Shown: positions 378 to 61,814 of the stretch, piece by piece
Position numbering within the stretch: position 1 is the first letter of the stretch
Layout of the letters: each line of letters starts with the position of its first letter
Virus record (IMG/VR): IMGVR_UViG_2643221865_000004
DNA length: 64,000 nucleotides
Origin: an uncultured virus (IMG/VR IMGVR_UViG_2643221865_000004)
Taxonomy: Duplodnaviria > Heunggongvirae > Uroviricota > Caudoviricetes
Direction: 5' to 3' (one strand)
The notes under the pieces: model-generated
What the model was told of the DNA's origin: nothing
Database searches by the model: none
What the model saw: the letters and a program-made list of their open reading frames with translations, nothing else
Position numbers and translations under genes: made by a program

Positions 378-422
378 AGGTTCTCCATTCAGGATGGAGC
401 CATGTGGCAGCTCGCCTGACGG

Positions 423-1001
423 TCAGCTGTGAGCTGTGCAGAACCTGTCGATGTCGGCCACATCCGCGGCGGTGATCCCGACAGCTTCATCGGTGGCGAT
501 GAGCAGGCCGGGGATGCCGGCGGCCACATCGTCGATGTTGAACGCCCGGTTGATGAGCCGTTCGCCGGCGATCTCGACGTCGTCCGCCCAGATGAACGGC
601 TGGCCTGTGTGGGCGACCCGGGCTCGGAGGGCGTTCAGTTTCCAGCGGGCGTCGCGGAAGCCGCGGACCCGCGGTGGGATCTTGGCCAGCACGAAACCGC
701 CGGCGAGCTTCCCTCCCAGGGCCTGGTCGACGAGAGCGCGGGCGTTCGGCCCCCAGGTGGTCAGCCACCCCAGCTCGATCTGGTGGGTGCGGATGGTGTC
801 GTCGAGCGCTGCGATGATGTCGGCGTCGAAGTCGATGACGTACTTCTGCCCGTGCGCGGTGCGGACCAGCACCCGGGTCAGACGAGCGGACGGAGCCTTC
901 TTCTTGGTGTTCTCCTCGAAGACGTTGATGACACCGTCGACGTCCAGCGCGAGAAGCGGTCGGGAGCCGTCGAACAGGTCGATCGGGAGGAGGGTTTCCA
1001 T
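423..1001 (-). CDS. HAD-superfamily hydrolase (Swiss-army-knife RNA-repair HAD-like)
   Basis: LLALDVDGVIN (DxD), WLTTWG, FIWADD; start moved to ATG 1001 (METLL), 18 nt after class B motif. Confidence 0.8.
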   Translation of the reverse strand: METLLPIDLFDGSRPLLALDVDGVINVFEENTKKKAPSARLTRVLVRTAHGQKYVIDFDADIIAALDDTIRTHQIELGWLTTWGPNARALVDQALGGKLAGGFVLAKIPPRVRGFRDARWKLNALRARVAHTGQPFIWADDVEIAGERLINRAFNIDDVAAGIPGLLIATDEAVGITAADVADIDRFCTAHS

Positions 1002-1055
1002 GCCACCATCATGTGCGGACGCGCAATGTCTTGCCTGCACGCTAGTCTCAGCGGC

Positions 1056-1979
1056 ATGTCGCTGACTCAGCCTGATTCCTCGCGAGAGATCCCCCACAAA
1101 CCGGAGTACGACGACGCGGTCGCCGAGGCAGCCCAGCTGGGTGCTGAGATCGGTGCGGACTACCCGGGTCTGTGGGAGCCGGACGAAGTGGTGGCGGCGA
1201 ACCTCCGCGCCCTGGTGGAGACGCAGGTGAAGGCGCTCGCCCCGAAGCCCGCTGTGCAGAAAGGGTTGCACCTACTGAACGCGTTCCTGTTCGTGGTGGG
1301 GTTCGTCATCCTCATCTACGCGGCGGGGAACGGCAGCTCGAACGAGTACAGCCCGAACTACGGCCGGGACATGTCCGGCTGGTGGGTGGCGTACTGGATC
1401 GTCACTGCACTGTGGATTGGCGGTCTCTGGTTGACGATGTCGCGGTGGTCAAAGCGGGGTCAGGCTCACACCGGCCTGGTGATCCGGATCCAACCCGCCA
1501 TGTTGGATGCTGCGATTGGTGCGTTCTCCGAACGGAAAGTCGACGCTCTCAACTACACGGCGGACGACGCTGCGACCGAGTTCACGCCGGGCGGGCCGAT
1601 GCCGGCCCCGCAACCGTACGGCGTCTCCCATCAGGGTGCGGAGCAGCTGACGGCAGGGTGGATGCGGTTCTTCGGTGAAGCTGATGCTGTTGTGACACAG
1701 TTCACCGGCGATGGTGGGATCGACGCCCAGTCACAGCATTACATCGCGCAGACGAAGAACTACGCCGGGACTGTCGGTGTGGAGTCCGTCCGGGAGCTCG
1801 CCGGGGTGGTGGCCGCCGACGGCAGGAAAGGGCTGTTCTTCACCTCCGGCACCTACGCGGCCGGTGCGATCCAGTTCGCTGACCGGGTCGGGATCCTGCT
1901 GTTCAGGTACGACGCCGCGGCCGGGTCTCTGGAAGCGGCGAACGCTGCAGCGGAAGCGGTGTTCGTCCGTGGTCTCTAA
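1056..1979 (+). CDS. membrane-anchored Mrr-like (Mrr_cat) restriction endonuclease-fold protein
   Basis: Two TM segments, then DGGIDA..IAQTKNY and GLFFTSGTYAAGAIQFA (Mrr-type D..QxK); TAGTCT 7 nt before ATG 1056. Confidence 0.75.
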   Translation: MSLTQPDSSREIPHKPEYDDAVAEAAQLGAEIGADYPGLWEPDEVVAANLRALVETQVKALAPKPAVQKGLHLLNAFLFVVGFVILIYAAGNGSSNEYSPNYGRDMSGWWVAYWIVTALWIGGLWLTMSRWSKRGQAHTGLVIRIQPAMLDAAIGAFSERKVDALNYTADDAATEFTPGGPMPAPQPYGVSHQGAEQLTAGWMRFFGEADAVVTQFTGDGGIDAQSQHYIAQTKNYAGTVGVESVRELAGVVAADGRKGLFFTSGTYAAGAIQFADRVGILLFRYDAAAGSLEAANAAAEAVFVRGL

Positions 1980-2291
1980 TCAGAGGACGCCGTCGTACCG
2001 TTCGGCGCTGAGTTCCGTCAGCCAGTAGTGCGTGCATCTGCCGTCGTGGGCGGCCGGGGTGATGGGTTCCAGCTGGTAGCGGACGACGTAGATCTTGTTG
2101 TCGCGGTTGGCGTACTTGTGCAGCACTCCGTCGATGATCAGCGGGGACATGGTCGTCCCCGTCCCGGCGAACCGGAACCATTCGCCGGTCGCGGAGACGT
2201 AGCCGAACCATCGGCCGAAGTTCCATTTGTCAGCCCAAGGGTCGACTGACGGCTTGGCGGCTGTTGATGCCTGGCTGGTGCTCACTGGCAT
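1980..2291 (-). CDS. hypothetical protein
   Basis: ORF with SD (GAAAGG); class B motif at 2327-2336. Confidence 0.65.
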   Translation of the reverse strand: MPVSTSQASTAAKPSVDPWADKWNFGRWFGYVSATGEWFRFAGTGTTMSPLIIDGVLHKYANRDNKIYVVRYQLEPITPAAHDGRCTHYWLTELSAERYDGVL

Positions 2292-2358
2292 GCCTTTCGG
2301 GGACGGTTGTCTGCTCTCGGCTCCTTCATGTGCGGCGCCGGCCTGTCTTGCCGAAGCT

Positions 2359-3144: not shown

Positions 3145-3173
3145 GCCGCCATCATGTGCGGCACCGCCCGGTT

Positions 3174-6128: not shown

Positions 6129-6188
6129 GCCGCGTATGTGTGTGGCTGCAGGGCATCAGGACCACCTAGTTCCGCGCATGTAGGTGGC

Positions 6189-9751: not shown

Positions 9752-9847
9752 GTTTGCCACCGTAGTGAACTGCTGTTCTCTCCGGAACCCGCCAGTTCGG
9801 GCCTCATCCACTTCCCGTTTCTCGGCCTCTCGAGGGAAACTGGTCTC

Positions 9848-15121: not shown

Positions 15122-15208
15122 GGTCGATCTCCTTCTGTTCCGGGCGGGAATGCGGCCGCCCTATTTCGGAGACGTAGGTGTGTGGCTGGCTCTGGCGCGG
15201 ACCGGTTC

Positions 15209-15952: not shown

Positions 15953-15982
15953 GCAATCTAGGTGTGTGGCTCGGGGGATGCA

Positions 15983-17543: not shown

Positions 17544-18239
17544 TCAGTGGAACGCGTACCGTTCGATCGGTTCGATCAGCTGGCTGTACCGCTGAGCTTC
17601 AGCGTCCCAGTGCGGGTCCTGCGTCCGGTGCTGCAGGATGAGGGCGCTGTCGCGGGCGAGGACGAGCTGGTTGTACGCGTGCCCGTAGCAGGCGGCGATG
17701 CTCTGCAGGTCCTCTGCCGGCTTCTCCATCGCCTTGCCGATGTACTCCCAGTACTCCTTGTCGGCGCGCTCCGCGACACCTTCGACGGAGTCGGTGGACA
17801 CGTTCGGGTGGCGGATCACCTTCTCGAGGATGCCGGGGCCGGCGTGCACGTCGTCGACCAGCTTCGCCAAGGTTCCAGCGCCGGTGTTCGGGAGTTCGGT
17901 TGCCATGAAGCGGACGCGGGGACGGTTGTAGACGTCCTTCCGGTTCAGCTCGCGGCTGACAGCCGATTCGATCTCCTCCGCGGTCAAGTCCGGGTTGGAG
18001 AGGGCGTGCATGCGGTCGTCGGCGGACTTTCGGCCGTCGTAGGCCGGGAACGGGGAGAACACCCGACCGGGACGGATGAACTGGTTCTCGACCGGCGACA
18101 CCGACTCCGGCAGGTGCCCGCCGACGGGGATCTCCTCCCCTGCGGTGTGCTGCGCCTGGCGGAACTTCCCGTCCTTCGCGTGCGGGTGCTTCTGGTGGTG
18201 CTCAACGAGCTCCGCCCCGGTCAACGTTCCGTCCGACAT
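17544..18239 (-). CDS. helical-repeat (LRV/HEAT-like) family protein, paralog 1
   Basis: RMHALSNPDL..ELNRK..RHPNVS; N-terminal HPHAKDGKF; SD plus class A motif at 18269-18280. Confidence 0.8.
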   Translation of the reverse strand: MSDGTLTGAELVEHHQKHPHAKDGKFRQAQHTAGEEIPVGGHLPESVSPVENQFIRPGRVFSPFPAYDGRKSADDRMHALSNPDLTAEEIESAVSRELNRKDVYNRPRVRFMATELPNTGAGTLAKLVDDVHAGPGILEKVIRHPNVSTDSVEGVAERADKEYWEYIGKAMEKPAEDLQSIAACYGHAYNQLVLARDSALILQHRTQDPHWDAEAQRYSQLIEPIERYAFH

Positions 18240-18280
18240 GTGATGCCTTTCCTTTGTGGTCAGAGACGTAGGTGTGTGGC

Positions 18281-18961
18281 CTACCTGCGGCGCCGGTTGG
18301 TTTCCAGGTCGTGGTCGTCGGCGATGATGCGCAGGTCCTGGAGGATCTCCCCGATCGCGAGCGAGTCCCCGTCGAATCGGCGGCTGCTGCGGTTTTCGGT
18401 GTCGAGGTCGTCCAGGTCGGCGGCGATGTCGTTCACTCGTTCCACCTTCACGCGGGCTTCGTCGAACGGGTCGTCGGTTCCGGTGGGGGCGTCGAGGGTA
18501 TCGATGATCTTCTGCACCCATGCTGCTGGGCCGTCGTCGATGTCATGTTCGATGCTGCTCATCTGGGTGAGCATGTCCCGAAGCCCGTCGCCGTGCTGGT
18601 CGAGGGTGTCGGCGACAGCAGCGGTTCGCATCGCAGCTCCGACAGGGTCGACGTCGTCCATCCGCACGGCCATCGCTTCACGGATCCTCCCGACCAGTTC
18701 GATGTTCGCGATCGGGTCTGCAGTCACCGGCAGGATCTGCTGTCGTTCCACGACACCGTCCATTGTGAGAACCACTCCGCGGTACTGTCCGGCCGATCGG
18801 GCGCGGTCTCCGCGCATCGAGCACAGCAGCTCGTCGTTGGATCCGGCCATGTGTGAGGCTTTGACGCCGCAAGCTTCCGGGTGCGGGCAGGCCACCTCGT
18901 TCTTCGGCAGGGTTCGTTGGGGGTTCATGATGATCCTTTCGGTGGTGAAGTCGGGTGGCAC
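18281..18961 (-). CDS. hypothetical protein
   Basis: Abuts 18962 gene; CPHPEACG..H; start uncertain (18961 or 18929). Confidence 0.7.
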   Translation of the reverse strand: MPPDFTTERIIMNPQRTLPKNEVACPHPEACGVKASHMAGSNDELLCSMRGDRARSAGQYRGVVLTMDGVVERQQILPVTADPIANIELVGRIREAMAVRMDDVDPVGAAMRTAAVADTLDQHGDGLRDMLTQMSSIEHDIDDGPAAWVQKIIDTLDAPTGTDDPFDEARVKVERVNDIAADLDDLDTENRSSRRFDGDSLAIGEILQDLRIIADDHDLETNRRRR

Positions 18962-19642
18962 TCAGGCCTGTTGCCGCTTGGCCTGCTGGTTCAGGGCTTG
19001 GTAGTGGGTTGCCTCTCGGCTCCAGTGCATGACGGCGTTGTCGACGTTCCGGCTGGCGAGGACGGCGGCGACCCCGGCGAGGTGGCCGGTGGAGCGTTCC
19101 AGCTTCCAGTAGGCCGCGTTGAGCTCGTCGGCGTCGGTGGCGTCGGAGATGGAGTCGATGGCGTTCTGGTAGGCGGCGAAGCCGTCGACGCGGAGGCGTT
19201 GGATGGTCTCGTTGGACGTGTTCGGGTGGCGGAGGACGTTCTCCCGGATCCCGAGTCCTGCGGCGCCGCCGGAGCTGATGAAGTCGAGGAGCGTGCGCGA
19301 CGAGTTCGGGTGCTCGGACGCGATCATCTTCACCTCGTCGAAGTGCAGCCTGTCTTTCCGTGACAGCTCACGGAACACGATCTGCTCGAGCTCGTCGCCG
19401 AGCAGTTCCGGGTTCCGCAGTGCGTCCATGCGGACGGATCCTTCGTGGCGGTGGTTGTACTTCTCGTACGGGACGGCGCGGCGCCGGGCTGCGGTCGGGG
19501 ACGGTTCGATGAAGCTGAGGACGGGCGTTTCGCCGGGGACCTCACGGAGGGTGGGGAACTGGCCGGTGCGGGCGTCGTGGACGGTGCCGGACTTCTTCGA
19601 GAAGGTGACGGGGGCGGTGTAGCGCGGGTCATTGATCGGCAT
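18962..19642 (-). CDS. helical-repeat family protein, paralog 2
   Basis: RMDALRNPEL..ELSRK..RHPNTS; HDARTGQF; class A motif 19 nt upstream. Confidence 0.82.
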   Translation of the reverse strand: MPINDPRYTAPVTFSKKSGTVHDARTGQFPTLREVPGETPVLSFIEPSPTAARRRAVPYEKYNHRHEGSVRMDALRNPELLGDELEQIVFRELSRKDRLHFDEVKMIASEHPNSSRTLLDFISSGGAAGLGIRENVLRHPNTSNETIQRLRVDGFAAYQNAIDSISDATDADELNAAYWKLERSTGHLAGVAAVLASRNVDNAVMHWSREATHYQALNQQAKRQQA

Positions 19643-19802
19643 GAAGACGTAGGTGTGTGGCCGGCCTGGGTGAATCGCGCGCGGACCGGTAAAAGCAAGC
19701 CCTTACCCGCTCATCTTCACCGACAGAGAGCAGCCTGAAAGCTTCGATGTCGGGAGGTGCTGGGATGCTCACCATCCCCACCCACGACACGAAGGGCCAT
19801 CC

Positions 19803-21449: not shown

Positions 21450-21570
21450 GGATTGGTGCTCCTGGGTGGGGTGTGCCGGGCGGGTGGACGGCGACATGAA
21501 GACATGTGGCAAGTCCTCAGATGCCGAGGTTTGCCACATGTCTCCGCGGTGAACCCGAAAGGCATTTCCC

Positions 21571-24125: not shown

Positions 24126-24148
24126 GCGATGTAGGTGTGTGGCGCCAA

Positions 24149-24823: not shown

Positions 24824-24924
24824 AGCGGTTGTGCTCCTTCTACGGTTTCGGATCCGTATGTGTGCGGGCGGATTCCGGCTGTGTCGGTCCGGGCGTTTCG
24901 CCGCGCCGGGGAGACATGTGGCGA

Positions 24925-27059: not shown

Positions 27060-27083
27060 ACGCCGTAGGTGTGTGGCGTCGCC

Positions 27084-27941: not shown

Positions 27942-27976
27942 GCCCTGAAGGCATGTGGCGGAAGCTTCTCGCCCTG

Positions 27977-28825: not shown

Positions 28826-28969
28826 ATCGGGAAGGCATGTGGCAGAAATGCTGGCATCCTTGGCCGCCGGTGTATCCAGCAGGCCGAGGAATGACAGGTT
28901 GAGCGGACCGCCGCGAAGGGCGTTGACGCCAGCCTCGCGACGGTCCGAGTTGATGATGGTCACGGGCGT

Positions 28970-29866: not shown

Positions 29867-29940
29867 GAGGTTCTCCTTCTTCTCGTCACCTTCATGTGCG
29901 GCATGCGGAGAAAATGGTGAACAGCGACTCGGCGGACGAA

Positions 29941-34109: not shown

Positions 34110-34479
34110 AGGTCACCTCATTTTCTACTCAGGCGGAAGATCTTCACTGAGTAGGTATGTGGCGAATGCTGGGGTCAGGTACTGGCGGCCGGCCAGCGAC
34201 AAACCATGCGTTTCCGCGCATGCAGGTGTCGAAGAAAGATAGACGAACTGGGTCCAGAAATTGCTCGTGAAAAGCGAACAAAAGCGAACAGGCCCGCACA
34301 TGTTTGTAATGAAGAAGGAAGACACATGCGAAACGAAACGGAGCAGTCGATGATCGAGAGAAATCACCCCGTATCGCGCATGTTGTTCACGTCAGGGAGA
34401 CGCGCAACTCCCTCAAATACCACCTGTGGCTTCCACCCCGGCTCTCATGCCGGGAGCCGGGATGCCGCCACGGGGAAGC

Positions 34480-35610: not shown

Positions 35611-36020
35611 CGGTACTCAATCTCCTTGTGCTGCACAGTTGGGTACCCTGATGCCGGCTAAGGGGAAATGATATCTGCGTGTCCGTTAGTCCTCGTCGTA
35701 GTCTCTTCAGCCGTTTCAGGGTGTCGCGTTCCGGCTTTTCCGGTTCGCGACTTTCTTGCTTGATACCTGCATGTGCGGCACTCCAGGGGTTCTGCGGAAC
35801 GCAATGACGGATCCGTCCGGTGTCAAATCGGGGGTTGTTGCGGCGCGTCGCCTTTAATAGAGCCGATCTGCGGGGTTCTGCACAAAACACCAGCACCCCC
35901 ACAACTGGGTACAGTTTCGGGTCTCAAAGCCGACAGAACAGACCTGATCCGCACATCCGAACGCGCAATGGGCGGCAGGTCCGAAGACCCACCGCCCAAT
36001 CTGGTACCCCTGATCTGGTG

Positions 36021-37251: not shown

Positions 37252-37323
37252 GCCACGGTCATGTGCGGACAGACGCAGAAACGGCCGCCGGTGTGCACCG
37301 ACGGCCGCCTCATCTGCCGTGTG

Positions 37324-40440: not shown

Positions 40441-40452
40441 GGAGTCTTCGTC

Positions 40453-40983: not shown

Positions 40984-40986
40984 GGC

Positions 40987-41322
40987 TTACGCGGAGGTGC
41001 CGGAGATCGACTGCAGCAGCTTCACTGCGGCGTTGATGACGAGCTGGAGGGCTGTCAGGATCGCCGGGATCAGGAAGTTCGGGCCGATCATCAGTCCGCC
41101 GAGGGCCAGGGTCCACCAGATGGGGCTCTGGCGGGCGCCGCCTCCGCGTCGCTTGTCCCAGAAGAACTTCAGGATGGACCATGCGATCAGGGCGACGCCG
41201 ACGATGGTGACCGTCGTCTCGACGGCGCTTCCCTCGTAGGAGCCCGACACCTTCTGCCAGAAGGTGCTCCATGCGCCCTTGAGGTCCAGCGTGCTGGAGG
41301 TTCCTGCGGTGTGGATGAGCAT
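40987..41322 (-). CDS. small two-TM protein (VirB2/TrbC pilin-like by size and position)
   Basis: 111 aa, two hydrophobic helices, GAAAGG SD; tandem C (41375) and A (41418) motifs. Confidence 0.5.
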   Translation of the reverse strand: MLIHTAGTSSTLDLKGAWSTFWQKVSGSYEGSAVETTVTIVGVALIAWSILKFFWDKRRGGGARQSPIWWTLALGGLMIGPNFLIPAILTALQLVINAAVKLLQSISGTSA

Positions 41323-41476
41323 TATGTGTGCCTTTCAGGTCGTTGCGGCTTTCCAGCCGGGGCTGACCGCAAGACATGTGGCGAATCGCCGGTGTCCTTG
41401 TAGGTCAACCGGAGGCATAAGTGTGCGGCCGGTTCAGGAGTCCCGAACCGGCCGCTGGTGGTGCTTGTGACGCTGC

Positions 41477-42694: not shown

Positions 42695-42762
42695 GAACCG
42701 TAGGTGTGCGGCACATTTCGGGTCCGATTCGGTGACGGCGTGTCGCCAGTGCTGACGCGGAA

Positions 42763-43473
42763 TTAGCCGTTCAGGCCGGGGACCAATTTCAGGTCCGCGA
42801 GAGGCCACAGGACCACGGCGGCTCGCCCCATGACGAGGTCTTCGTCGACGTACGGTCCGGACGGGTCGTCCTGGTGGAATCGGGAGTCCGCGGAGTTCTC
42901 CCGGTTGTCTCCCATGACCCACAACTTCCCGTCGGGGACGGTGATGTCGAACGGGACTGTGGAGGCGCTGGTGACGGTCCTCGGCAGGTACGGTTCGTCC
43001 AGCGGGGCGTCGTTCAGGAGGAGGACCCCGTCTGATCCGACGGCCACGTGGTCGCCGGGGAGGCCGATGACGCGTTTGACGAGCAGGTCTCCGTGGGTGT
43101 CGGCGATCACTTTCGCGTCCACCAGGAACTCGTACAGCGGGTCCGGCATGGTTTGGGTGTTCGGAGGAAGCCATCCGCCCGGGTCTTCGAACACGACGAC
43201 GTCGCCTCGTTCGATATCGAATACGTGCCCGGTGAGTTGCTCCACGCCGACCCTGTCGCCGACCTTCAACGTCGGGTCCATCGATGCGCTGGGGATCAGG
43301 GCGAGGGTGAACAGGTACTGCCGGATGAGGACGGCGGCGACGATGGAGACGGCGATCACGATCGTGTAGCTCAGCAGGCGTCTCCACCCGCGGCCGCGTC
43401 GCTGCTTCGTCATCGCCTTCCGGCGCGTCGGCTGTGCGCGGCGGCCCCGCGACTTCTCTGTCTCATCCGTCAC
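42763..43473 (-). CDS. lepB: signal peptidase I
   Basis: IPSASMDPTL, LLVKRVIGLPGD, GDNRENSADSR; class C motif 18 nt upstream. Confidence 0.95.
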   Translation of the reverse strand: MTDETEKSRGRRAQPTRRKAMTKQRRGRGWRRLLSYTIVIAVSIVAAVLIRQYLFTLALIPSASMDPTLKVGDRVGVEQLTGHVFDIERGDVVVFEDPGGWLPPNTQTMPDPLYEFLVDAKVIADTHGDLLVKRVIGLPGDHVAVGSDGVLLLNDAPLDEPYLPRTVTSASTVPFDITVPDGKLWVMGDNRENSADSRFHQDDPSGPYVDEDLVMGRAAVVLWPLADLKLVPGLNG

Positions 43474-43498
43474 ACGGGAAAGGCATGTGGCGGAACGG

Positions 43499-44323
43499 TC
43501 AGGTTCGGCAGCCGACCAGGATCGCTTTCATGGACTCCCGCTCGCCGTCTGTGACGGTCAGCGCGTACTTCGTTTTCACGGTGATCTGGCGGGCCAGGAA
43601 GTCGCAGGCGTAGGTGACGTCCGGTGGGGCCCACTGGTCGGCGGGACGGCCGGCCCGAGCGGACGAGGATGCTTCGTCGACGGTGATCATGTTCAGCGGG
43701 TCGTTGGCGAACTTCACCAGCTTCACCGGGTTCCAGGTGCTCGCCCCGGACTGCCAAGCGTCAGCGAGGCCCACAACGCGGTCCACGGTGATGGAGGCGG
43801 GGCTCTGCTTGCTGGTGTACTCCACCTTCGCTCCGGTGTACGGGTCGGTCAGCGAACCGGACTTCACCGTGCAGCCGTCCTTCGACTTCACCACTTTGGT
43901 GAGGTCGCGGTCCAAGGTGTCCGCGAAGGTGTCGCAGCCGTTCCTGTTGATGTCGACCCATCCGTCGCCGAACTCCGATGCGTCGAAGTTGTCGGCTGGG
44001 TCGTCTGTCGCGCCGAGCTTCTCCAAGCTCTTCAGGGCGCTCTTCGCTGAGATCGTCAGCTTCTTCGCCGGGGTGGCGGACTTCTTATCGTCGATGGTCT
44101 GCTCCACCTCAGCGGGTTCGCCCGGCGGGGCGTCGTCCGCTTCCTCTTCGGCGGTGGTGGACCCGGTGACAGACATGATCGCTGACGCGACTTCGCCGAG
44201 GGCGGCGTTCACTTTCGGCATCTGTCCGGAGGTGCTGAGCAGCACCACCAAGGCGATGACTCCGAGGAGGACGACGAAGCCGTTCTGGAAGAACCCTCCG
44301 CCGTTGTTCTGTCCGGGGCGCAT
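43499..44323 (-). CDS. secreted DUF1524/HNH-fold protein with substituted active-site residues
   Basis: FGDGWVD..NGCDT..LDRD..DPYTG..ITVDRVV..AW.SGA..FANDPLN. Confidence 0.8.
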   Translation of the reverse strand: MRPGQNNGGGFFQNGFVVLLGVIALVVLLSTSGQMPKVNAALGEVASAIMSVTGSTTAEEEADDAPPGEPAEVEQTIDDKKSATPAKKLTISAKSALKSLEKLGATDDPADNFDASEFGDGWVDINRNGCDTFADTLDRDLTKVVKSKDGCTVKSGSLTDPYTGAKVEYTSKQSPASITVDRVVGLADAWQSGASTWNPVKLVKFANDPLNMITVDEASSSARAGRPADQWAPPDVTYACDFLARQITVKTKYALTVTDGERESMKAILVGCRT

Positions 44324-45064: not shown

Positions 45065-45082
45065 GAGTTCTAGGTGTGTGGC

Positions 45083-46890: not shown

Positions 46891-46920
46891 GACGTTCTAG
46901 GTGTGTGGCGCAGCCCCAGG

Positions 46921-48381: not shown

Positions 48382-48404
48382 GGGTTCTACGTGTGTGGGG
48401 CGTG

Positions 48405-49880: not shown

Positions 49881-49898
49881 GCACCCATAAGTGTGTGG

Positions 49899-50279
49899 CT
49901 ACGCGGCCTCAGCGGGAGCTTCATCCGTGGCGGCAGCCTTCGTCCGCGGCGCAGGAGCTCCAGCCTTCACAGCCTTGCCGACACAGCCCAGAGTGAGCGT
50001 GCATTTCGTCGGGACGGTGCCGGTGCCGATGAACGCCACCTTGTCGCACTCCTTGCACCACGTCAGGGTCACCGGGGCGCCCTTCTGGACGCTCAGGAAC
50101 GACACCACCGACTGCTCATACTCACGAACCAACGCCAGCTGCTCATCAGTCAGGCGCGGCTCAACACCGGTGCGGACCAGCTCCTCCCACGTCTCGCAAC
50201 GGTTCTTCGCGATCGCGACCAACGCGATCTCCGCAGCACGGAATGCCGGGTGGACAGGCTTCTCAGCAACCTCAGTCAT
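49899..50279 (-). CDS. small Cys-rich (Zn-ribbon) protein
   Basis: WCKEC..KC..GC; GAGG SD; ATGA overlap with upstream gene. Confidence 0.7.
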   Translation of the reverse strand: MTEVAEKPVHPAFRAAEIALVAIAKNRCETWEELVRTGVEPRLTDEQLALVREYEQSVVSFLSVQKGAPVTLTWCKECDKVAFIGTGTVPTKCTLTLGCVGKAVKAGAPAPRTKAAATDEAPAEAA

Positions 50280-50524: not shown

Positions 50525-50544
50525 GGCACCAACATGTGCGGATC

Positions 50545-53364
50545 TCATCTCTTCTTCCGCTTCTTCTCGACGACGGCGACGGTGAGCTCGCGGACGATGT
50601 CGGACGCTGACTTCATGTCTTCGACGTTGTCGACGACGGACACATCGTGGTCACCGCCGAGGACGGCGCTGAGCGTCTTCCCCTTGGTGTTCTGGACCTT
50701 CTGGATGCGTTCGTCGAGTGTGCCGTAGGCGACCAAGGTGAGGGTGGAGGTGGTTCGTTTCTGGTTGACGCCTTGGATGCGGTCCATGGCCTGCAGCACG
50801 TTCATCGGTGTCCAGTCGGTCTCCACGAACCAGGCGTCCGAGGAGCGGGTCAGGTCGATGCCGACACCGGCGGCGATGATCGAAGCGGCGAGCACCGGGA
50901 TCTCCCCTGCCTGGAACCTGCGTACGACGTCGTCCTTCTGCTTCTGGCTCATGCCGCCGATGATCATGGCGGAGCCTTCGACGTGGCCGTCGAGGGCGGA
51001 TGCCATCGCTTCGGTGACGTCTCGGTGGTGGGTCCAGACGATCAGGGGCCGGTTGTAGATGGGTCGGCCGTCGGGGAGGTACTCGATGGTGTTCTTGACG
51101 TGGTCGATCACCATCTCCGCAGCTCCGGGGATCTTCGACATGCCGGCTGCGCGGCGGAGGATGGAGAGCAGGCCGATGTTCTCGTTCGAGAACTGGTCGA
51201 TCGCTTCGTCGTTCGGGAGGGACCCCATCTGGTCGACGTACTTGTCGACCCATTCGCCGATCTCGTCGTTGACGGTCTCGTGGGCTTCGTTGAACAGTTT
51301 CAGGTCGACGTCGAGGATCAGCTTGTCGTGGGTGCCGGCTGTTCCGATGCCGACCTGCGCCTTGGAGCGTCGCACCCACACCTGGTCGCGGAGGAGATTC
51401 TGGAGTCGCAGCTGGCCGGTCTTCTTCGCGTGGAGGCGGCCGAACTTGTCCCGGGTGCAGAACAGCTTCAGGAACCCGTCGACACCGCCGAAGATCGGGC
51501 CGAGGTGGCCTGACATCTCCAGCAGCGGGGTGAGCTCCATCGGGCTGGCGGCGATCGGGGTTCCGGTCAGAGGGATGACCATCTTCTCGGCGACTGCGGC
51601 GATGTCGAGCACCGCTTCGCAGCGTTTCGTCCCGTAGGTTCCTTCGCGGTGGGCTTCGTCGACGATGACGACCTGCGGGGACCAGGCCATGATCTTCTTC
51701 TTCAGCTCCTCGCGGGCGGCGATCAACGAGTCGGAGACGATGACGACCCCGGTCTCCGGGAGCTCCGGCTCTTTGCGGCCGGACTTGAACACGGCGATCT
51801 TCCCGTCGGACTTGCCGCCCCGGTTGTACAGGCCGGACTCTTCGACGTTCACAGACCAGTTGGTGAGCACCAGCGGGGGTGTGATGATCAGGGTGCGGTG
51901 CGACTTCAGGAGGGTCGCGGCGGCCAGTGACGTGCGGGTGTTGTGGGTGAGGACGTAGTCGCGGGTGACGAACAGGCTGTCGGGGGCGTCCACTTCGATG
52001 CACTGGCATTCGACGGGCTCGGCGAGCTGTTCGATGCTGGTGATCCACCGCTCAGGGGTGGTCTGTTCCCACAGACCGGAGAGCTGGTGGGATTCGTGGA
52101 ACGGGTTCATCGGGGTGGTGAACACCACCTCGGATGGCCCTTCGAGGTGCTCGGCGACACCGCCGAGGGAGCGGATCAGGTCGATGGTGGTTCTGGCGTG
52201 CTCAGGACCGGCGACCTGGATGGCTGCGCCGCCGCGGTTCCAGATGAGACCGTTGGAGTTCATCTGGAAGCGTAGGGCGTTCACCCTCACGTCGACCGGC
52301 TTCAGCAGGAGGGAGTCGGTGTTGAGTTCGGTGTCGAACTGGATCGGGTTCACGACCGGCACCTGCCACGGATCCCCAGTGGTCGGGTCCTGCAGGCCGG
52401 AGTTCAGGATGTCGAGCGTCGTCATGATCCGGGTGCCGGATCCGTGCACCTCCCAGAGGTGCTCGCCGTCGGCGATGACGTAGGCGCCGTCGGAGAAGGT
52501 GACCCGGTACACGTCACGGGCTCCCTGGTAGAAGACGCCGGTGATGTTGTGCGGGACCCCGTCGGATCCGATGACCTGGTCGCCTTCGACGAGGTCGCCC
52601 ATCGGGCGGAACCCGGTCGGGGTGAGGACCGGCTCGGTCAGCGGCAGCGCCTTCCCGACGCGGGGTTCGTCGAACAGGCCGTTGTGGCCGGCGGCGACGG
52701 CGTAGGCGCCGATCTCCTGGAAGTCGAACATCGGCAATCCGAACCAGGGTGCGAACACGCCGTTGATCCGCTTAAGCTGTTCGTTCTCCTCAGCGGTCAG
52801 CGACGCGAGACTGGTGGCGGATCCTGCCTTGGAGAGAAGGGCGACGTTCTCAGGTGCGACGTTGACGCGGCTGCGGAGCCGGATCGCTTCATCGATGGCG
52901 TCCTGGTGGTGGTGGATGCCGGGCCTGAGGGTGCCTTCCATGGTGAGCATGTCGATGGTGGGGACCATGAACAGGCCCCGCTTCTTGTCCCAGATCGCGC
53001 CCCATCCGAGCAGCTCAGCTGCCAGGTCGAAACCGAGGAATCTGTGCCGGACCATGGTGCGGCGTTTGTTCGGGTGGAGCTTCGCGATCGGGGTGACGAG
53101 GTCGTCGAGGTTCCGGCAGTCGTACAGGTCGGAGGCTGGGTCGTTCGCCCAGATGATCCGGAAGCCGGCGTCGGTGATGATCTGCTGCGGTGTCGGGCCG
53201 ATGCCGGTGACCACCCAGCCGCCGAGGTCCTTGTCGAACCGGCGTCCGGGGAGGGCTTTCACCCATGGCTGCAGGGGCTTCCGGGTGCGCGAGTGAACGG
53301 CGTTGCGTCCGAAACGGAGCAGCAGTTCAGGGTTGCGTCGGGATCCGCGCAGCAAAGCGTCCAT
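50545..53364 (-). CDS. SNF2/HARP-like DEAH helicase containing an intein
   Basis: DEPRVGK[intein]T, VDEAH, LTGTP, GVGIDLT, QAMDRI. Confidence 0.92.
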   Translation of the reverse strand: MDALLRGSRRNPELLLRFGRNAVHSRTRKPLQPWVKALPGRRFDKDLGGWVVTGIGPTPQQIITDAGFRIIWANDPASDLYDCRNLDDLVTPIAKLHPNKRRTMVRHRFLGFDLAAELLGWGAIWDKKRGLFMVPTIDMLTMEGTLRPGIHHHQDAIDEAIRLRSRVNVAPENVALLSKAGSATSLASLTAEENEQLKRINGVFAPWFGLPMFDFQEIGAYAVAAGHNGLFDEPRVGKALPLTEPVLTPTGFRPMGDLVEGDQVIGSDGVPHNITGVFYQGARDVYRVTFSDGAYVIADGEHLWEVHGSGTRIMTTLDILNSGLQDPTTGDPWQVPVVNPIQFDTELNTDSLLLKPVDVRVNALRFQMNSNGLIWNRGGAAIQVAGPEHARTTIDLIRSLGGVAEHLEGPSEVVFTTPMNPFHESHQLSGLWEQTTPERWITSIEQLAEPVECQCIEVDAPDSLFVTRDYVLTHNTRTSLAAATLLKSHRTLIITPPLVLTNWSVNVEESGLYNRGGKSDGKIAVFKSGRKEPELPETGVVIVSDSLIAAREELKKKIMAWSPQVVIVDEAHREGTYGTKRCEAVLDIAAVAEKMVIPLTGTPIAASPMELTPLLEMSGHLGPIFGGVDGFLKLFCTRDKFGRLHAKKTGQLRLQNLLRDQVWVRRSKAQVGIGTAGTHDKLILDVDLKLFNEAHETVNDEIGEWVDKYVDQMGSLPNDEAIDQFSNENIGLLSILRRAAGMSKIPGAAEMVIDHVKNTIEYLPDGRPIYNRPLIVWTHHRDVTEAMASALDGHVEGSAMIIGGMSQKQKDDVVRRFQAGEIPVLAASIIAAGVGIDLTRSSDAWFVETDWTPMNVLQAMDRIQGVNQKRTTSTLTLVAYGTLDERIQKVQNTKGKTLSAVLGGDHDVSVVDNVEDMKSASDIVRELTVAVVEKKRKKR
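51940..52650 (-). mobile_element. intein (237 aa), Ala1 start, class 3 WCT signature, decayed endonuclease
   Basis: ALPLTEPVLTPTG...ADGEHLW...CQCIEV...YVLTHN/T inserted between K and T of helicase motif I. Confidence 0.9.
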
Positions 53365-53401
53365 ATGGTTCTATGCGCGACGGAAGTGCCCGGCTGTCCT
53401 G

Positions 53402-54499: not shown

Positions 54500-54530
54500 G
54501 CTCTGTAGGTGTGTGGCTGTGAGACGACGA

Positions 54531-55450: not shown

Positions 55451-55493
55451 GGTTTCCTAAGTGTGCGGCCGGGGTACGGCTGCGTTCCTTTCT

Positions 55494-58604: not shown

Positions 58605-58611
<7 letters not shown>

Positions 58612-59069: not shown

Positions 59070-59090
59070 GCCTTCGAGGCATGTGGCGAG

Positions 59091-60083: not shown

Positions 60084-60117
60084 GCACCGTTGACATGTGG
60101 CGACAGGAGGGTACGAG

Positions 60118-60152: not shown

Positions 60153-60194
60153 GACTTGCTGTTCAGATCACAGGAGCGAGCTCCTGCTCACCTG

Positions 60195-60743
60195 CTAGAA
60201 GTCGTAGTCGTCGTCATCCACGGCGACGGCCGCGGGGGCGGCAGCGACGGGGACGGCGACGGGGGCTGCCACGGGGGCAGCGACGGCCGGAGCTGCGACA
60301 GCAGCTGCGGGTGCAGCCACGGCGGCTGCGGCGGGGGCGCCGACGGGAGCGGCGGCGACGGCGGTCGTCGGCGTGTTCTTCGCACGGCGAGTGAACGTCG
60401 TGGTGCCGAAGCGGAGCGTGGGGCCGACCTCGTCGACCTCGAGCTCGATCACGGTGCGCTTCTCGCCCTCCTTCGTCTCGTACGAGCGCTGCTTGAGCTC
60501 GCCGATGGCGAAGACGTTGTCGCCCTTGTGGGCCGACGCGGCGAAGTTCTCCGCGTACTCACGCCACAGCGAAGCACGGATGAACAGCGGCTCGCCGTCC
60601 TTGAACTGGCCCGACTCACGGTCGAAGACGCGGGGCGTCGACGCGATCGTGAAGTTGGCGACTGCCACACCGCTCTGGGTGTAGCGGAGCTCCGGGTCAG
60701 CGGTCAGGTTGCCGACGATGGGGAAGCCGTACTGGTTCGTCAT
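60195..60743 (-). CDS. ssb: single-stranded DNA-binding protein
   Basis: [30 protein letters not shown]; acidic tail DDDDYDF. Confidence 0.95.
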
Positions 60744-60862
60744 TTCTGGGTATCTTCTTTCGTTTCGTATCAGTGAATGGCGGCGTGTGTGCTGCCACAT
60801 CCTTCATGTGCGGATTCAGCACGTTTTGCTGAAACCGGTTCTTCCGGCGGGTGCCGGCAGGT

Positions 60863-61141
60863 TTATAGGTGTGCGGTCTCGTGAACGAGGGTCCGTCGGA
60901 TGGTGGAGAAGACCTTCTCCTCGCTGGCGCCGGTTTCGTTCTGCACCAGCTGAATCAGGAGACGGCTGATGTTGGAGAGCGCGTGGACGCGACGCTCCAA
61001 CGTGAGGCCGGCGGATGCGTAACCGGCGGCGGTTGCGTCGTCGTGGCTGAGTGCCTCCAGGGCGGCGAGCATCTGGAGTGCGTCGTCGGCCGGGTTCAGC
61101 CACTGGGTGGTGTCGGTGTTGTCGGAGACGATGGTGCTCAT
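60863..61141 (-). CDS. small helical hypothetical protein (92 aa)
   Basis: MSTIVSD...; ATGA overlap with Orn-like gene. Confidence 0.6.
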   Translation of the reverse strand: MSTIVSDNTDTTQWLNPADDALQMLAALEALSHDDATAAGYASAGLTLERRVHALSNISRLLIQLVQNETGASEEKVFSTIRRTLVHETAHL

Positions 61142-61788
61142 ACGGCTACTTCCTGGTGTGCGACACGCTGTGCGTGGGCGCGGTACATGTCCGCTTGGAT
61201 TCGGGCTTCGGCGAGGTGGAGGCGAATGTCGACGATGGCGCGGTGGTTCTTCCCGTCGTTCACGCCGGTCAGGTCGGTGCCGGTTGCGCGGCGGTATGCC
61301 TTCCGGACGAGGCCGACGTCGTTGGTCTCTCGGTCGTCCAGCAGGGAACGCAGCGCCGGGGTCTTGTGGAGCAGCATCTTCGTGTCGTACTGCCAGACAC
61401 CGGACCCGGACAGGACCAGGGTTCCGTTGTGCGGGTAGCTCTTGATCAGGTCGATGATCTGACGCTCGACGAGCTCGACGGTGGGGAGCTCCTGTCGGAG
61501 GATCGGGTCGGAGATGATCGCCATCAGCCCGTTGCCGGTGTGCATCTCGCGCACCGGATCGTTCGCGGCGGCGCGGTTGACGGCGGCTTCGGAGGCGAAC
61601 ACCACAGCTTCGTACTCGAACAGGGTGTCGAGGTTGTTGTTGGTCCCGATGACACCGAACTCGATGATGTCGTCCAGGACCGGGTCGAGCCCTGTCGCTT
61701 CCAGGTCGACCCAGAGATGGGTGAGGGTGTTGTCGGTCATGGTGGTGTGGTCTGCCGGGACGGCAGCCTCCATTCGGATGTAGGGCAT
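61138..61788 (-). CDS. orn: oligoribonuclease-like DEDDh exonuclease
   Basis: LWVDLEATGLD..IIE..MHTGNGL..HRAIVDI; class B motif at 61804. Confidence 0.8.
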   Translation of the reverse strand: MPYIRMEAAVPADHTTMTDNTLTHLWVDLEATGLDPVLDDIIEFGVIGTNNNLDTLFEYEAVVFASEAAVNRAAANDPVREMHTGNGLMAIISDPILRQELPTVELVERQIIDLIKSYPHNGTLVLSGSGVWQYDTKMLLHKTPALRSLLDDRETNDVGLVRKAYRRATGTDLTGVNDGKNHRAIVDIRLHLAEARIQADMYRAHAQRVAHQEVAV

Positions 61789-61814
61789 GGGGTCTGATTC
61801 CTTCATGTGCGGAC

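What the first reader, a model, noticed from the sequence alone, without database searches (positions are those of the whole stretch)
401..61813. Element-wide non-canonical promoter-like motif fixed 18-19 nt before leaderless start codons
Seen: about 45 copies of a (G/T)CC(A/G)CA(C/T) core, upstream of genes and oriented with them on both strands. In ~25 cases the first base lies 18 nt (four cases 19 nt) before ATG/GTG with no SD, e.g. GCCACACACCTACATCGC-ATG (24125), GCCGCACATGATGGCGGC-ATG (3144), GCCACATGCCTTCAGGGC-GTG (27941). Where the motif is further upstream, the gene usually has a normal SD. The rule picks starts that paralog alignment independently supports (28825, 48381). Known: actinobacterial leaderless genes normally have TANNNT about 7 nt before ATG, as the few motif-less genes here do (1056, 9751). 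Inference: a promoter read by an element-encoded sigma factor, RNA polymerase or activator.
Basis: partly seen in the sequence, partly recalled or inferred. Interest (0 to 1): 0.9.

Follow-up and report, generated by a model that had tools for sequence, protein, structure and literature searches.

The report
Megaplasmid-private promoter for leaderless genes
A 701-kb plasmid-like replicon of a soil-type actinobacterium puts its own 12-base signal, unlike the host's promoters, exactly six bases before the start codon of many of its genes, so it very probably runs a private transcription code that related giant plasmids share.

Summary
The core KCCRCAY is followed at exactly 18 nt by a coding ATG/GTG 18 times in the window and 132 times on the whole 701-kb contig C5. 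No other contig shows a peak.

A 12-nt matrix finds 318 sites on C5:
- 127 lie 17-19 nt before a coding start.
- 156 lie elsewhere between genes, and 154 of these point at the next gene.
- Only 35 lie inside genes, though genes cover 89% of C5.

Spacing is all-or-none: either no leader, or a leader of at least 12 nt carrying a Shine-Dalgarno word. Base 19 is a purine and base 18 a pyrimidine even where no start codon is present. The motif ends at -7, where the host's TANNNT hexamer ends. The best reading is a one-piece promoter that starts RNA on the 19th base.

The reader of the motif is unresolved. C5 encodes five sigma-type proteins. The best candidate is a very divergent one (P0002), shared with Curtobacterium and Arthrobacter-type megaplasmids that carry the same motif (pACHL01: 90 copies). 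A related 149-kb plasmid has the motif but no recognisable sigma.

No transcript 5' ends were available. An earlier report of this scan (e1-5753074) found the same kind of signal on other DNA.

The parts
3151..3162 (-). motif GCCGCACATGAT, 18 nt before ATG 3144 (metallophosphoesterase)
6135..6146 (-). motif GCCACACACATA, 18 nt before ATG 6128
15959..15970 (-). motif GCCACACACCTA, 18 nt before ATG 15952
19650..19661 (-). motif GCCACACACCTA, 19 nt before ATG 19642
24132..24143 (-). motif GCCACACACCTA, 18 nt before ATG 24125
27066..27077 (-). motif GCCACACACCTA, 18 nt before ATG 27059
27948..27959 (-). motif GCCACATGCCTT, 18 nt before GTG 27941 (PP2C-like)
28832..28843 (-). motif GCCACATGCCTT, 18 nt before GTG 28825; this start fits the paralog's N-terminus
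42701..42712 (-). motif GCCGCACACCTA, 18 nt before ATG 42694
43480..43491 (-). motif GCCACATGCCTT, 18 nt before GTG 43473 (signal peptidase S26)
45071..45082 (-). motif GCCACACACCTA, directly after the upstream TGA and 18 nt before ATG 45064
46898..46909 (-). motif GCCACACACCTA, 19 nt before ATG 46890
49888..49899 (-). motif GCCACACACTTA, directly after the upstream TAG and 19 nt before ATG 49880
50531..50542 (-). motif TCCGCACATGTT, 18 nt before ATG 50524 (82-codon ORF that my gene caller did not call; uncertain)
54506..54517 (-). motif GCCACACACCTA, 18 nt before ATG 54499 (ArdC-like)
55458..55469 (-). motif GCCGCACACTTA, 19 nt before ATG 55450
59076..59087 (-). motif GCCACATGCCTC, 18 nt before ATG 59069 (HNH)
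60090..60101 (-). motif GCCACATGTCAA, 18 nt before GTG 60083
1008..1019 (-). weaker copy (under 12 bits) TCCGCACATGAT, 18 nt before ATG 1001 (HAD_SAK_2)
37258..37269 (-). weaker copy TCCGCACATGAC, 18 nt before ATG 37251
48388..48399 (-). variant CCCACACACGTA (first base C), 18 nt before ATG 48381; this start fits the paralog
397..408 (-). motif with a leader: 31 nt before start 377
2325..2336 (-). motif with a leader: 51 nt before start 2285
15175..15186 (-). motif with a leader: 65 nt before start 15121
18269..18280 (-). motif with a leader: 56 nt before start 18224
21499..21510 (-). motif in a 73-nt divergent gap; the likely start is ATG 21449 behind AGGAG (read by eye)
21533..21544 (+). motif in the same divergent gap, 38 nt before GTG 21571 (pilin-like protein), with AAAGG in between
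24911..24922 (-). motif with a leader: 99 nt before start 24823
29891..29902 (-). motif with a leader: 36 nt before ATG 29866 (SprT-like); GAGAAGAAGGAG follows base 18
34152..34163 (-). motif with a leader: 54 nt before GTG 34109 (1374-aa conjugation-type protein)
35768..35779 (-). motif 169 nt before start 35610
41371..41382 (-). motif with a leader: 60 nt before start 41322
41418..41429 (-). second motif, 107 nt before start 41322
60803..60814 (-). motif with a leader: 71 nt before start 60743 (SSB)
61802..61813 (-). motif before the exonuclease-like gene; my caller took the ATG inside the motif as the start, so the true start is unclear
53362..53376 (-). second, rarer motif class GCATAG-AACCAT-ATG, heading the 939-codon SNF2 helicase ORF (ATG 53364)
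1043..1048 (+). host-type -10 hexamer TAGTCT, 13 nt before ATG 1056 (Mrr-like)
9759..9764 (-). host-type -10 hexamer TACGGT, 13 nt before ATG 9751

Best explanation
The 12-nt motif is a one-piece promoter used across contig C5, a 701-kb accessory megaplasmid. It comes in three sub-types: GCCRCAYACNTA, GCCACATGYCYY, and KCCGCACATGWW followed by GGTGRY. It occupies -18 to -7, has no -35 partner, and directs RNA polymerase to start on the 19th (sometimes 20th) base.

In about 125 genes that base is the A or G of the start codon, so the message has no leader and no Shine-Dalgarno site. In about 155 others a leader of at least 12 nt carrying a Shine-Dalgarno word follows. About a third of C5 genes are headed this way, often directly behind the stop codon of the preceding gene.

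Shown from sequence: the placement, orientation, spacing and base preferences of the motif; its restriction to the replicon; and its conservation on related elements.

Inferred: that the motif is recognised by a sigma-70-family factor other than the host's housekeeping sigma, encoded by this family of elements. The leading candidate is the divergent sigma-like protein P0002 (C5:648134-649015, outside the window).
For: Placement
- C5 has 132 motif copies at offset 18 against 5-36 at other offsets. No other contig has a peak.
- The matrix scan at 12 bits or more gives 318 sites on C5 (0.454 per kb) against 0.017-0.046 per kb on the other large contigs.
- Of the 318 sites, 127 lie 17-19 nt before a coding start, 156 lie elsewhere between genes, and 35 lie inside genes. 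Crude gene calls cover 89% of C5.
- 154 of the 156 point at a co-oriented gene. None of the 156 lies 22-29 nt from the predicted start (19 lie under 17 nt, where my caller chose an ATG inside or beside the motif); most of the rest lie 30-100 nt away.
- Convergent gaps hold a motif in 1 of 76 cases. Tandem gaps hold a co-oriented motif in 215 of 678 cases and an opposed one in 0.

Start-site signature
- At -1, C is 67% and T 22% of 132 sites.
- In leadered sites, base 19 is G/A in 74 of 79 (type 2) and 47 of 48 (type 3). Base 18 is C/T in 71 of 79 and 42 of 48.
- There is no sequence information upstream of -19.

No room for another promoter
- Divergent gaps of 45, 48 and 58 nt hold two back-to-back motifs, each 17-18 nt from its start.

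Non-coding targets
- Motifs lie 44 and 96 nt before tRNA groups at C5:19808 and C5:6700.

Geometry matches the host's leaderless promoters
- On the chromosome, TANNNT begins 12 nt (422 cases) or 13 nt (228 cases) before coding starts, against about 25 at other offsets. C5 has only 13 and 17.
- Both signals end at -7.

Translation
- SD-like words occur before 6 of 127, 85 of 127 and 303 of 607 starts in the three gene groups.
- In mycobacteria a +1 ATG/GTG suffices for leaderless translation (PMC4633059, passages read).

Conservation on related elements
- Island on C1.
- Plasmid G089:C2, 22 sites on one strand.
- Islands in G389 and G095.
- Agromyces humi, 13 matches against 2 in the control.
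- pACHL01, CCGCACA-N10-RTG 90 against 1 in the control. pS16, 24 against 1.

Candidate reader
- P0002 has homologs with Sigma70_r3 hits.
- The top ~49 Foldseek rows are sigma-containing entries (nearly all sigma chains), spanning the full length.
- Its N-terminal domain aligns to the sigma-2 domains of sigma-E, SigW and SigC at Z 8.2-8.5, rmsd 2.8-3.1 A, over 87-92 residues.
- tblastn finds it on 8 megaplasmids of 375-608 kb.
Against: - No transcript 5' end is available. No RNA run was listed for this DNA.
- The last six bases of the motif (CACCTA, TGCCTT, CATGTT) are a poor match to any described -10 element, so recognition is inferred from position only.
- Plasmid G089:C2 has 22 sites but no match to the P0002 profile (E up to 0.1), to Sigma70_r4_2 or to Sigma70_r3.
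- The P0002 relatives in G389 and G095 look truncated or broken.
- The only protein family shared at tblastn E 1e-3 by C5, the C1 island, G089:C2 and the G389 island is a type IV pilin-like family.
- Any backbone gene would co-occur with the motif by descent, so co-occurrence with P0002 is weak evidence.
- The fold Z values for P0002 are in the range the tool calls 'middling' for helical proteins. The model's mean pLDDT is 69.5, from a 7-row alignment.
- 49 of 97 leaderless motif genes with a co-directional neighbour sit under 40 nt behind its stop. This would also suit an RNA-level signal inside operons.
Confidence: 0.6

Rival explanations
1. The motif is a promoter, but a host-encoded factor reads it: a host alternative sigma, or host RNA polymerase aided by a general factor. 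The elements simply exploit that factor.
For: Plasmid G089:C2 carries 22 motif sites, yet no sigma-type domain was found on it. The core CCGCACA is shared by plasmids living in two host families, Microbacteriaceae and Micrococcaceae. That would suit a conserved host factor.
Against: - Host chromosomes have essentially no copies. In G000 the other large contigs carry 0.017-0.046 sites per kb, and most high-scoring C1 sites lie in one island.
- All four exact GCCGCACACGTA copies in G089 lie on the plasmid.
- None of 400 other family genomes has more than 2 matches to GCCRCAYRCCTW-N6-RTG.
- A host sigma with no chromosomal regulon would be odd.
Confidence: 0.17
2. The motif is the operator of an element-encoded global regulator, laid over a weak promoter of another kind. 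This would resemble phage stoperators or the 34-bp plasmid-only box over the -10 of pMP7017 promoters.
For: - The motif is asymmetric, lies between genes and is co-oriented with them.
- pMP7017 gives a precedent for a plasmid-only motif at promoters, which its authors read as a transcription-factor site (PMC10832533, passages read).
- Three sub-types could be three operators.
Against: - No host-type TANNNT lies at the required place within or beside the motif.
- There is no sequence information upstream of -19.
- The distance to the start point is fixed to within 1 nt, and bases -1 and +1 follow the initiation rule. An operator alone need not impose either.
- Gaps of 45-58 nt hold nothing but two motifs.
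Confidence: 0.1
3. The motif acts in RNA. It would be either a processing site that cuts polycistronic transcripts 6 nt downstream to release leaderless messages, or a non-SD ribosome-loading signal.
For: Many copies lie directly behind the previous gene's stop. 49 of 97 leaderless motif genes with a co-directional neighbour have gaps under 40 nt. CTGA is found within 32 nt upstream of 106 of 283 sites. The distance to the start codon is fixed.
Against: - The motif also stands 30-100 nt before genes that have their own SD.
- It stands before tRNA groups.
- It occurs back-to-back in short divergent gaps, where transcription must begin.
- The purine at base 19 and pyrimidine at base 18 in leadered sites fit initiation.
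- Only 17 of 318 sites lie in the sense strand inside genes.
Confidence: 0.06

Closest known systems
Leaderless housekeeping promoters of Actinobacteria (TANNNT, 6-7 nt, then ATG/GTG as +1)
   Same: The geometry is the same. The element ends at -7, a 6-nt (less often 7-nt) spacer follows, the start codon is the first transcribed base, and there is no SD. The host chromosome itself has about 650 such promoters. A +1 RTG is sufficient for translation in mycobacteria (PMC4633059, passages read).
   Different: The sequence differs. -12 to -7 reads CACCTA, TGCCTT or CATGTT rather than TANNNT. Six further, nearly invariant bases (KCCRCA) lie at -18 to -13. The motif is confined to one replicon and its relatives.
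Private promoters of mobile elements read by their own sigma: SigN of plasmid pBS32 in Bacillus subtilis (PMC6751061, listing and abstract seen); phage T4 late promoters with gp55 (recalled)
   Same: An element-specific promoter word is absent from the host chromosome, and sigma-type genes sit on the element. As in the T4 late promoters (recalled), there is a -10-region element only and no -35.
   Different: Here the code heads about a third of 831 genes on a 701-kb replicon. It is fused to start codons. It is conserved over plasmids of two bacterial families.
34-bp plasmid-only motif over the -10 of 19 promoters of the Bifidobacterium breve megaplasmid pMP7017 (PMC10832533, passages read)
   Same: Both are actinobacterial conjugative megaplasmids with a tRNA array and a tmRNA, carrying a conserved promoter-associated motif that is absent from host chromosomes.
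   Different: The pMP7017 motif surrounds a canonical TATACT -10, and its authors read it as a regulator site. The genes there have leaders and ribosome-binding sites. Here no canonical hexamer is present, and many genes are leaderless.
Sigma-28 (FliA/WhiG) promoters, long -10 element GCCGATAA (recalled)
   Same: Both have a long, GC-rich -10-region element that begins with GCCG or GCCA.
   Different: The register differs by about 3 nt and there is no TAAA -35. C5's own FliA-type sigma heads a flagellar cluster that contains no motif sites.
Stoperators of Cluster A and start-associated sequences of Cluster K mycobacteriophages (recalled, not checked here)
   Same: Both are short asymmetric words repeated across an element, oriented with transcription, lying near gene starts.
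   Different: Start-associated sequences include the ribosome-binding site. Stoperators have no fixed distance to starts. Here SD words are missing and the distance is fixed to within 1 nt.
Earlier report of this scan, e1-5753074 (233-kb actinobacterial element)
   Same: It describes a signal ending six bases before start codons, private to the element, and says related Arthrobacter-type megaplasmids have their own versions.
   Different: It concerns other DNA, and I did not see its motif letters. Here the motif is traced to named public plasmids (pACHL01, pS16), and a second class (GCATAG) is seen.

Membership tests
Actinobacterial sigma-A leaderless promoter | TANNNT hexamer at -12 to -7 | tested here: not met
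   In 132 sites, -12 is C 56% / T 43%, -11 is A 50% / G 42%, and -7 is A 40% / T 26%. No sub-type has T, A and T together.
Actinobacterial sigma-A leaderless promoter | Element ends 6-7 nt before a +1 ATG/GTG, with no SD | tested here: met
   100 sites at 18 nt and 24 at 19 nt. The host's TANNNT begins at 12 nt (422) and 13 nt (228). SD-like words precede 6 of 127 starts.
Actinobacterial sigma-A leaderless promoter | Used throughout the host chromosome | tested here: not met
   0.017-0.046 sites per kb on the other large contigs against 0.454 on C5. There is no offset-18 peak off C5.
ECF-sigma promoter | Conserved -35 (GGAAC-like) 16-17 nt upstream of a short -10 | tested here: not met
   Information content is at most 0.12 bit at every position from -60 to -19. 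The words enriched upstream are stop codons and A/T-rich words.
Promoter (any class) | Primary transcript 5' ends at a fixed distance downstream | not testable with these tools
   No RNA run was listed for this DNA. Indirect support only: Y at -1 and R at +1.
Promoter (any class) | Lies upstream of and is co-oriented with transcription units, including non-coding ones, and is rare inside genes | tested here: met
   154 of 156 co-oriented. 35 of 318 intragenic. 1 of 76 convergent gaps occupied. Two tRNA groups preceded by a motif.
Sigma-70 family (for candidate reader P0002) | Sigma-2 domain fold | tested here: met
   Residues ~7-120 align to the sigma-2 domains of sigma-E, SigW and SigC at Z 8.2-8.5, rmsd 2.8-3.1 A, over 87-92 residues. 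All top rows are sigma factors. Caveat: these Z values are middling for helical domains, and the model's mean pLDDT is 69.5.
Sigma-70 family (for candidate reader P0002) | Region 3 / region 4 sequence signatures | tested here: inconclusive
   Sigma70_r3 scores 26.7 bits (cut-off 25.3) in the C1 paralog and is precomputed for P0003 and P0004. P0002 itself has no Pfam hit on record. The best PDB profile hits are SigA region 3, at E 0.017. No region 4 hit was found.
Sigma-70 family (for candidate reader P0002) | Binds core RNA polymerase and directs initiation at the motif | not testable with these tools
   Needs in vitro transcription or genetics.
Operator / stoperator array | Cognate DNA-binding repressor, and sites without a fixed distance to the start point | tested here: inconclusive
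   The distance is fixed to within 1 nt, which is unlike stoperators as I recall them. No repressor was sought.

The most novel reading that the evidence does not exclude
A widespread family of 0.15-0.7-Mb Micrococcales megaplasmids runs a largely self-contained gene-expression layer. Known members are this one, Curtobacterium pS16, Pseudarthrobacter pACHL01 and related ICE-like islands. The layer would consist of a dedicated, highly divergent sigma; at least two non-canonical promoter classes (KCCGCACA... and GCATAG...) wired as a cascade, with the sigma operon itself under the GCATAG class in both C5 and pACHL01; gene-by-gene leaderless transcription; and the plasmid's own near-complete tRNA set and tmRNA. 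The plasmid's genes would thereby be insulated from host regulation, much as in a giant phage.
Probability: 0.3. Interest if true: 0.85.

Novelty: new variant of a known kind. Interest (0 to 1): 0.72.

Why it matters
If this is a private promoter code, it matters in four ways.
- It explains how a 701-kb accessory replicon controls about 830 mostly unknown genes apart from the host.
- It gives exact start codons for well over a hundred genes here and on public plasmids, where annotation pipelines that expect a ribosome-binding site may misplace them.
- It offers an orthogonal promoter/sigma pair for high-GC actinobacteria.
- It makes the question directly testable, because the same motif sits on plasmid pACHL01 of a cultivable, long-sequenced strain, Pseudarthrobacter chlorophenolicus A6.

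I found no description of the motif in four full-text searches.

Tried and rejected
- **RNA evidence.** The run search listed no RNA holder, and no reads were laid.
- **Phage-type RNA polymerase.** PF00940 gave no hit in the genome, but the search rang in none of its 14 control genomes either, so it is uninformative. A regex for a DxDGD-type catalytic motif in C5 proteins gave only implausible hits.
Rejected. It heads a flagellar cluster with no motif sites. About 50%-identical copies are chromosomal in 57 of 200 other family genomes, and none of the 400 family genomes searched for the motif pattern has more than 2 matches.
- **The two divergent ECF-like paralogs (C5:356507-357157 and C5:475959-476735).** They have no motif upstream and no homolog in the C1 island, in G089:C2 or in the 5.8-billion-protein set. 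They cannot be the general reader. They might serve the C5-only sub-type 3, which is speculation.
- **A -35 element.** None found.
- **A shared regulator across the four motif-bearing elements.** The only shared family is pilin-like.
- **Close DNA relatives among PLSDB plasmids.** No megablast match for window 24000-44000.
- **Genome-contig scan with the P0002 alignment.** It returned one locus only.
- **GCATAG-N6-8-RTG genome-wide.** No excess overall: 59 against 57 in the control. Only a C5 subset with GCATAGAR...YATG looks real.
- **Recurrent single chromosomal matches in other genera** (for example GCCGCACACCTACGACCTGTG). I took these for conserved coding sequence because G000 has a diverged in-gene version. 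This was not checked further.
- **Script limit.** Only 2 script calls remained at the end, so I made no covariation analysis between P0002 residues and motif variants.

Full report
**Setting**

The window is G000:C5:571971-635970. The genome is 4.54 Mb in 11 contigs. C5 is 701,121 bp at 65.2% G+C, while the other large contigs are 68-69%. Genus-mates in the sample are 3.3-3.8 Mb, so C5 looks like an accessory megaplasmid.

Named relatives of its proteins are Agromyces, Curtobacterium, Leifsonia and Microbacterium. The host is therefore a member of the Microbacteriaceae.

The window genes are typical of actinobacterial conjugative elements: ArdC-like, SNF2 helicase, M23 peptidases, SSB, HNH, SprT-like, signal peptidase and the start of a DnaE. 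Most of the 59 proteins scanned have no Pfam family. I called genes with a crude codon-usage model. It gives 831 genes covering 89% of C5, 63 of them in the window. Starts from this caller are approximate.

The 7-mer KCCRCAY alone is only weakly enriched: 129 matches against 104 +/- 10 in shuffles. What is far beyond chance is where it sits.
- For each offset 0-60, I counted copies followed by ATG/GTG opening at least 60 codons. The window gives 18 at offset 18, 4 at offset 19, and 0-6 elsewhere.
- On all of C5 the count is 132 at offset 18 against 5-36 at other offsets. No other contig has a peak; C1, for example, has 28 at offset 18 within a background of 16-48.
- The hits are spread over the whole 701 kb.

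**Anatomy of the motif**

Aligning the 132 sites shows a 12-nt element from -18 to -7, weak preferences at -3 to -1 (G, G, then C 67% / T 22%), and nothing upstream of -19.

There are three sub-types on C5:
- GCCRCAYACNTA: 77 sites, 51 of them leaderless.
- GCCACATGYCYY: 138 sites, 49 leaderless.
- KCCGCACATGWW followed by GGTGRY: 80 sites, 25 leaderless.

A 12-nt matrix at 12 bits or more finds 318 sites on C5 (0.454 per kb) against 0.017-0.046 per kb on the other large contigs.

**Context of the 318 sites**

- 127 lie 17-19 nt before a coding start (100 at 18 nt, 24 at 19, 3 at 17).
- 156 lie elsewhere between genes.
- 35 lie inside genes, 17 in sense and 18 in antisense.
- Of the 156, 154 point at a co-oriented downstream gene. 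Of the 156, 19 lie under 17 nt from the predicted start (my caller chose an ATG inside or beside the motif), 1 at 17-21 nt, none at 22-29 nt, and most of the rest 30-100 nt away.
- An SD-like word precedes 6 of 127 motif-at-18 starts, 85 of 127 starts with the motif further upstream, and 303 of 607 other starts.
- In the leadered sites the 19th base is G/A in 74 of 79 (type 2) and 47 of 48 (type 3). The 18th base is C/T in 71 of 79 and 42 of 48. Typical leaders read GAACC... or GAGAAGAAGGAG....
- Convergent gaps hold a motif in 1 of 76 cases. Tandem gaps hold a co-oriented one in 215 of 678 and an opposed one in 0.
- Divergent gaps of 45, 48 and 58 nt consist of little more than two back-to-back motifs, each 17-18 nt from its own start.
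- C5 also carries 42 tRNA genes and a tmRNA. Two tRNA groups are directly preceded by a motif, at 44 and 96 nt.
- In all, 272 of 831 C5 genes have a co-oriented motif within 200 nt upstream, as do 30 of 63 window genes. Of these, 123 on C5 and 17 in the window have leaderless geometry.

**What this means**

The all-or-none spacing is what a transcription start at base 19 predicts. So is the pyrimidine-purine step at bases 18 and 19 where no start codon is present. The same holds for the copies before tRNAs and the short divergent gaps.

The host gives a yardstick. On the chromosome, TANNNT begins 12 nt (422 cases) or 13 nt (228 cases) before coding starts, against about 25 at other offsets. 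C5 has only 13 and 17. The host's -10 hexamer and the C5 motif thus end at the same position (-7) with the same 6- or 7-nt spacer.

The C5 motif reads CACCTA, TGCCTT or CATGTT where the host has TANNNT. It adds six nearly invariant bases at -18 to -13, the stretch contacted by sigma region 3 in extended -10 promoters (established knowledge, recalled). I therefore read it as a one-piece promoter for a sigma-70-type factor with altered specificity.

Leaderless ATG/GTG messages are translated efficiently in actinobacteria (PMC4633059, passages read).

**Who reads it?**

C5 has five sigma-type ORFs, all outside the window.

(i) A FliA/WhiG-type sigma lies at the head of a flagellar cluster that contains no motif sites. 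About 50%-identical copies are chromosomal in 57 of 200 other family genomes.

(ii) A canonical ECF sigma lies at C5:302838-303332. ECF promoters need a -35, and none is present here.

(iii, iv) Two divergent ECF-like paralogs, 29% identical to each other, have no motif upstream and no relatives elsewhere.

(v) P0002 (293 aa, C5:648134-649015) is the last gene of an operon with a ParA/CpaE-like ATPase.
- It has no Pfam hit of its own, but its homologs carry Sigma70_r3.
- An AlphaFold model was made (mean pLDDT 69.5, 7-row alignment).
- The top ~49 Foldseek rows are sigma-containing entries (nearly all sigma chains), spanning the full length, at E from 2e-3 and TM 0.2-0.27.
- In the second look its N-terminal domain matches sigma-2 domains at Z 8.2-8.5, rmsd 2.8-3.1 A, over 87-92 residues. 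The tool warns that such Z values are middling for helical proteins.
- Homologs lie in a second element of the same genome, in Agromyces humi, in 4 of 400 other family genomes, and on 8 PLSDB megaplasmids of 375-608 kb from Curtobacterium, Pseudarthrobacter, Paenarthrobacter and Arthrobacter.

**Relatives carry the motif**

- **C1 island.** C1:~350-480 kb has lower G+C, an integrase, and conjugation genes up to 52% identical to window proteins. It holds 8 copies of GCCGCACACGTA plus type-2 copies, several 18-19 nt before ATG.
- **Family sample.** Among 400 other family genomes, clustered copies of that word occur in G389 (6), G089 (4) and G095 (3). Elsewhere there are at most 3 scattered copies.
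- **G089:C2.** This 148.8-kb plasmid of another genus has a 55-kb module encoding RepA, ParA, type IV pilus genes, FtsK-like proteins and an RNA ligase. The module has 22 sites, all on the gene strand and 21 of them between genes, many 18-19 nt before ATG.
- **Agromyces humi.** 13 pattern matches against 2 in the control.
- **pACHL01.** This plasmid of Pseudarthrobacter chlorophenolicus A6 has CCGCACA-N10-RTG 90 times against 1 in the control, nearly all as CCGCACACATN-N6-ATG.
- **pS16.** This Curtobacterium plasmid has that word 24 times against 1, and a second word, GCATAGR-N6-RTG, 87 times against 1.
- **The GCATAG class** also heads genes on pACHL01, including the operon that holds its P0002 homolog. 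On C5 about 13 copies of GCATAGAR-N5-6-YATG exist. They include the head of the P0002 operon, its divergent neighbour, and the SNF2 gene in the window at 53364.

The pattern GCCRCAYRCCTW-N6-RTG is found 38 times in G000, and at most twice in each of the 400 other family genomes.

**Against the P0002 idea**

- G089:C2 has the motif, but no match to the P0002 profile or to Sigma70_r4_2 or Sigma70_r3.
- The copies in G389 and G095 look truncated.
- The only family shared by all four elements that I compared is pilin-like.
- Co-occurrence through common descent proves little.

My estimates are about 0.35 for the P0002 family, about 0.2 for another element protein, and about 0.17 for a host factor. 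The remainder covers the non-promoter readings.

**Rivals**

- **Operator over another promoter.** This would not explain the missing hexamer, the 1-nt precision or the Y/R step.
- **RNA processing or ribosome-loading signal.** This fits the tight packing behind stop codons: 49 of 97 leaderless motif genes with a co-directional neighbour lie under 40 nt behind its stop. It does not fit the leadered genes with their own SD, the tRNA groups or the short divergent gaps.

**Comparison with what is known**

- The geometry is that of actinobacterial leaderless promoters, but the word is different and private.
- Private promoters with an element-borne sigma are known from phages (recalled) and from pBS32/SigN (PMC6751061, listing and abstract).
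- A plasmid-only promoter-associated box is known from the Bifidobacterium megaplasmid pMP7017, where it surrounds a canonical -10 (PMC10832533, passages read).
- I found no paper describing this motif or the P0002 family. Subscription journals are not covered by these searches.
- An earlier report of this scan (e1-5753074) reached a like reading on other DNA. I tested its claim about Arthrobacter-type megaplasmids here and it holds.

**Verdict**

The promoter reading is well supported by sequence logic but lacks 5'-end data. The element-encoded reader is plausible, with one concrete candidate and one clear counter-example.

Noticed in passing
G000:C5:5894-22352 (outside the window), plus C5:144366, 692440, 696020, 700551: C5 carries 42 tRNA genes and a tmRNA (tag ANASRSDFALAA). 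38 tRNAs and the tmRNA lie in one array on one strand. This is a near-complete decoding set on a plasmid-like replicon. pS16 appears to have a tRNA array next to its sigma-like operon, judging by gaps in its locus tags.
   Followed up: partly
G000:C5:102706-111210 (L015): A flagellar gene cluster (fliC, fliD, fliS, rod genes, fliE, fliF, fliG, fliH) with its own FliA-type sigma lies on the megaplasmid. It is the only FliA-type gene in this genome.
   Followed up: partly
window 21571-23259 (+) and 12 further C5 genes: Thirteen paralogs share a type IV pilin-like N-terminus (AAIDLASIMVGVIVIAI...), followed by very different C-terminal parts of 123-1057 aa. This is the only family shared by all four motif-bearing elements I compared.
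   Followed up: partly
G000:C1:~350000-480000: An ICE-like island on a chromosomal contig has lower G+C (0.63-0.66). It holds an integrase and conjugation genes related to the window's. It also holds defence genes (Pycsar effector, PIN, Eco57I-type methylase) and its own sigma-like gene.
   Followed up: partly
window 53362-53376 (-); C5:644470, 643809: A second motif class, GCATAGAR-N5-6-YATG, has about 13 copies on C5. It heads the SNF2 helicase gene in the window and the operon of the sigma-like gene. The same word is the main one on Curtobacterium pS16 (87 copies).
   Followed up: partly
window 17544-19642 (-): Three tandem genes of 226 codons each, with no Pfam family. They are probably tandem paralogs.
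   Followed up: no
window 423-1001 and 36021-36917 (-): HAD_SAK_2 and RlaP domains ('Swiss Army Knife' RNA-repair proteins) occur here. RNA ligase and further HAD_SAK_2 genes occur on related plasmids. RNA-repair functions seem to belong to this plasmid family.
   Followed up: no
PMC10832533, 34-bp motif of pMP7017: The published pMP7017 box contains the word TCCACAT just downstream of its -10, which fits the KCCRCAY core. This may be coincidence.
   Followed up: no
G000:C3 (6,049 bp, 62.7% G+C): This small contig of lower G+C has 2 matrix sites at 12 bits or more in 6 kb. It may belong to C5 or to another element.
   Followed up: no
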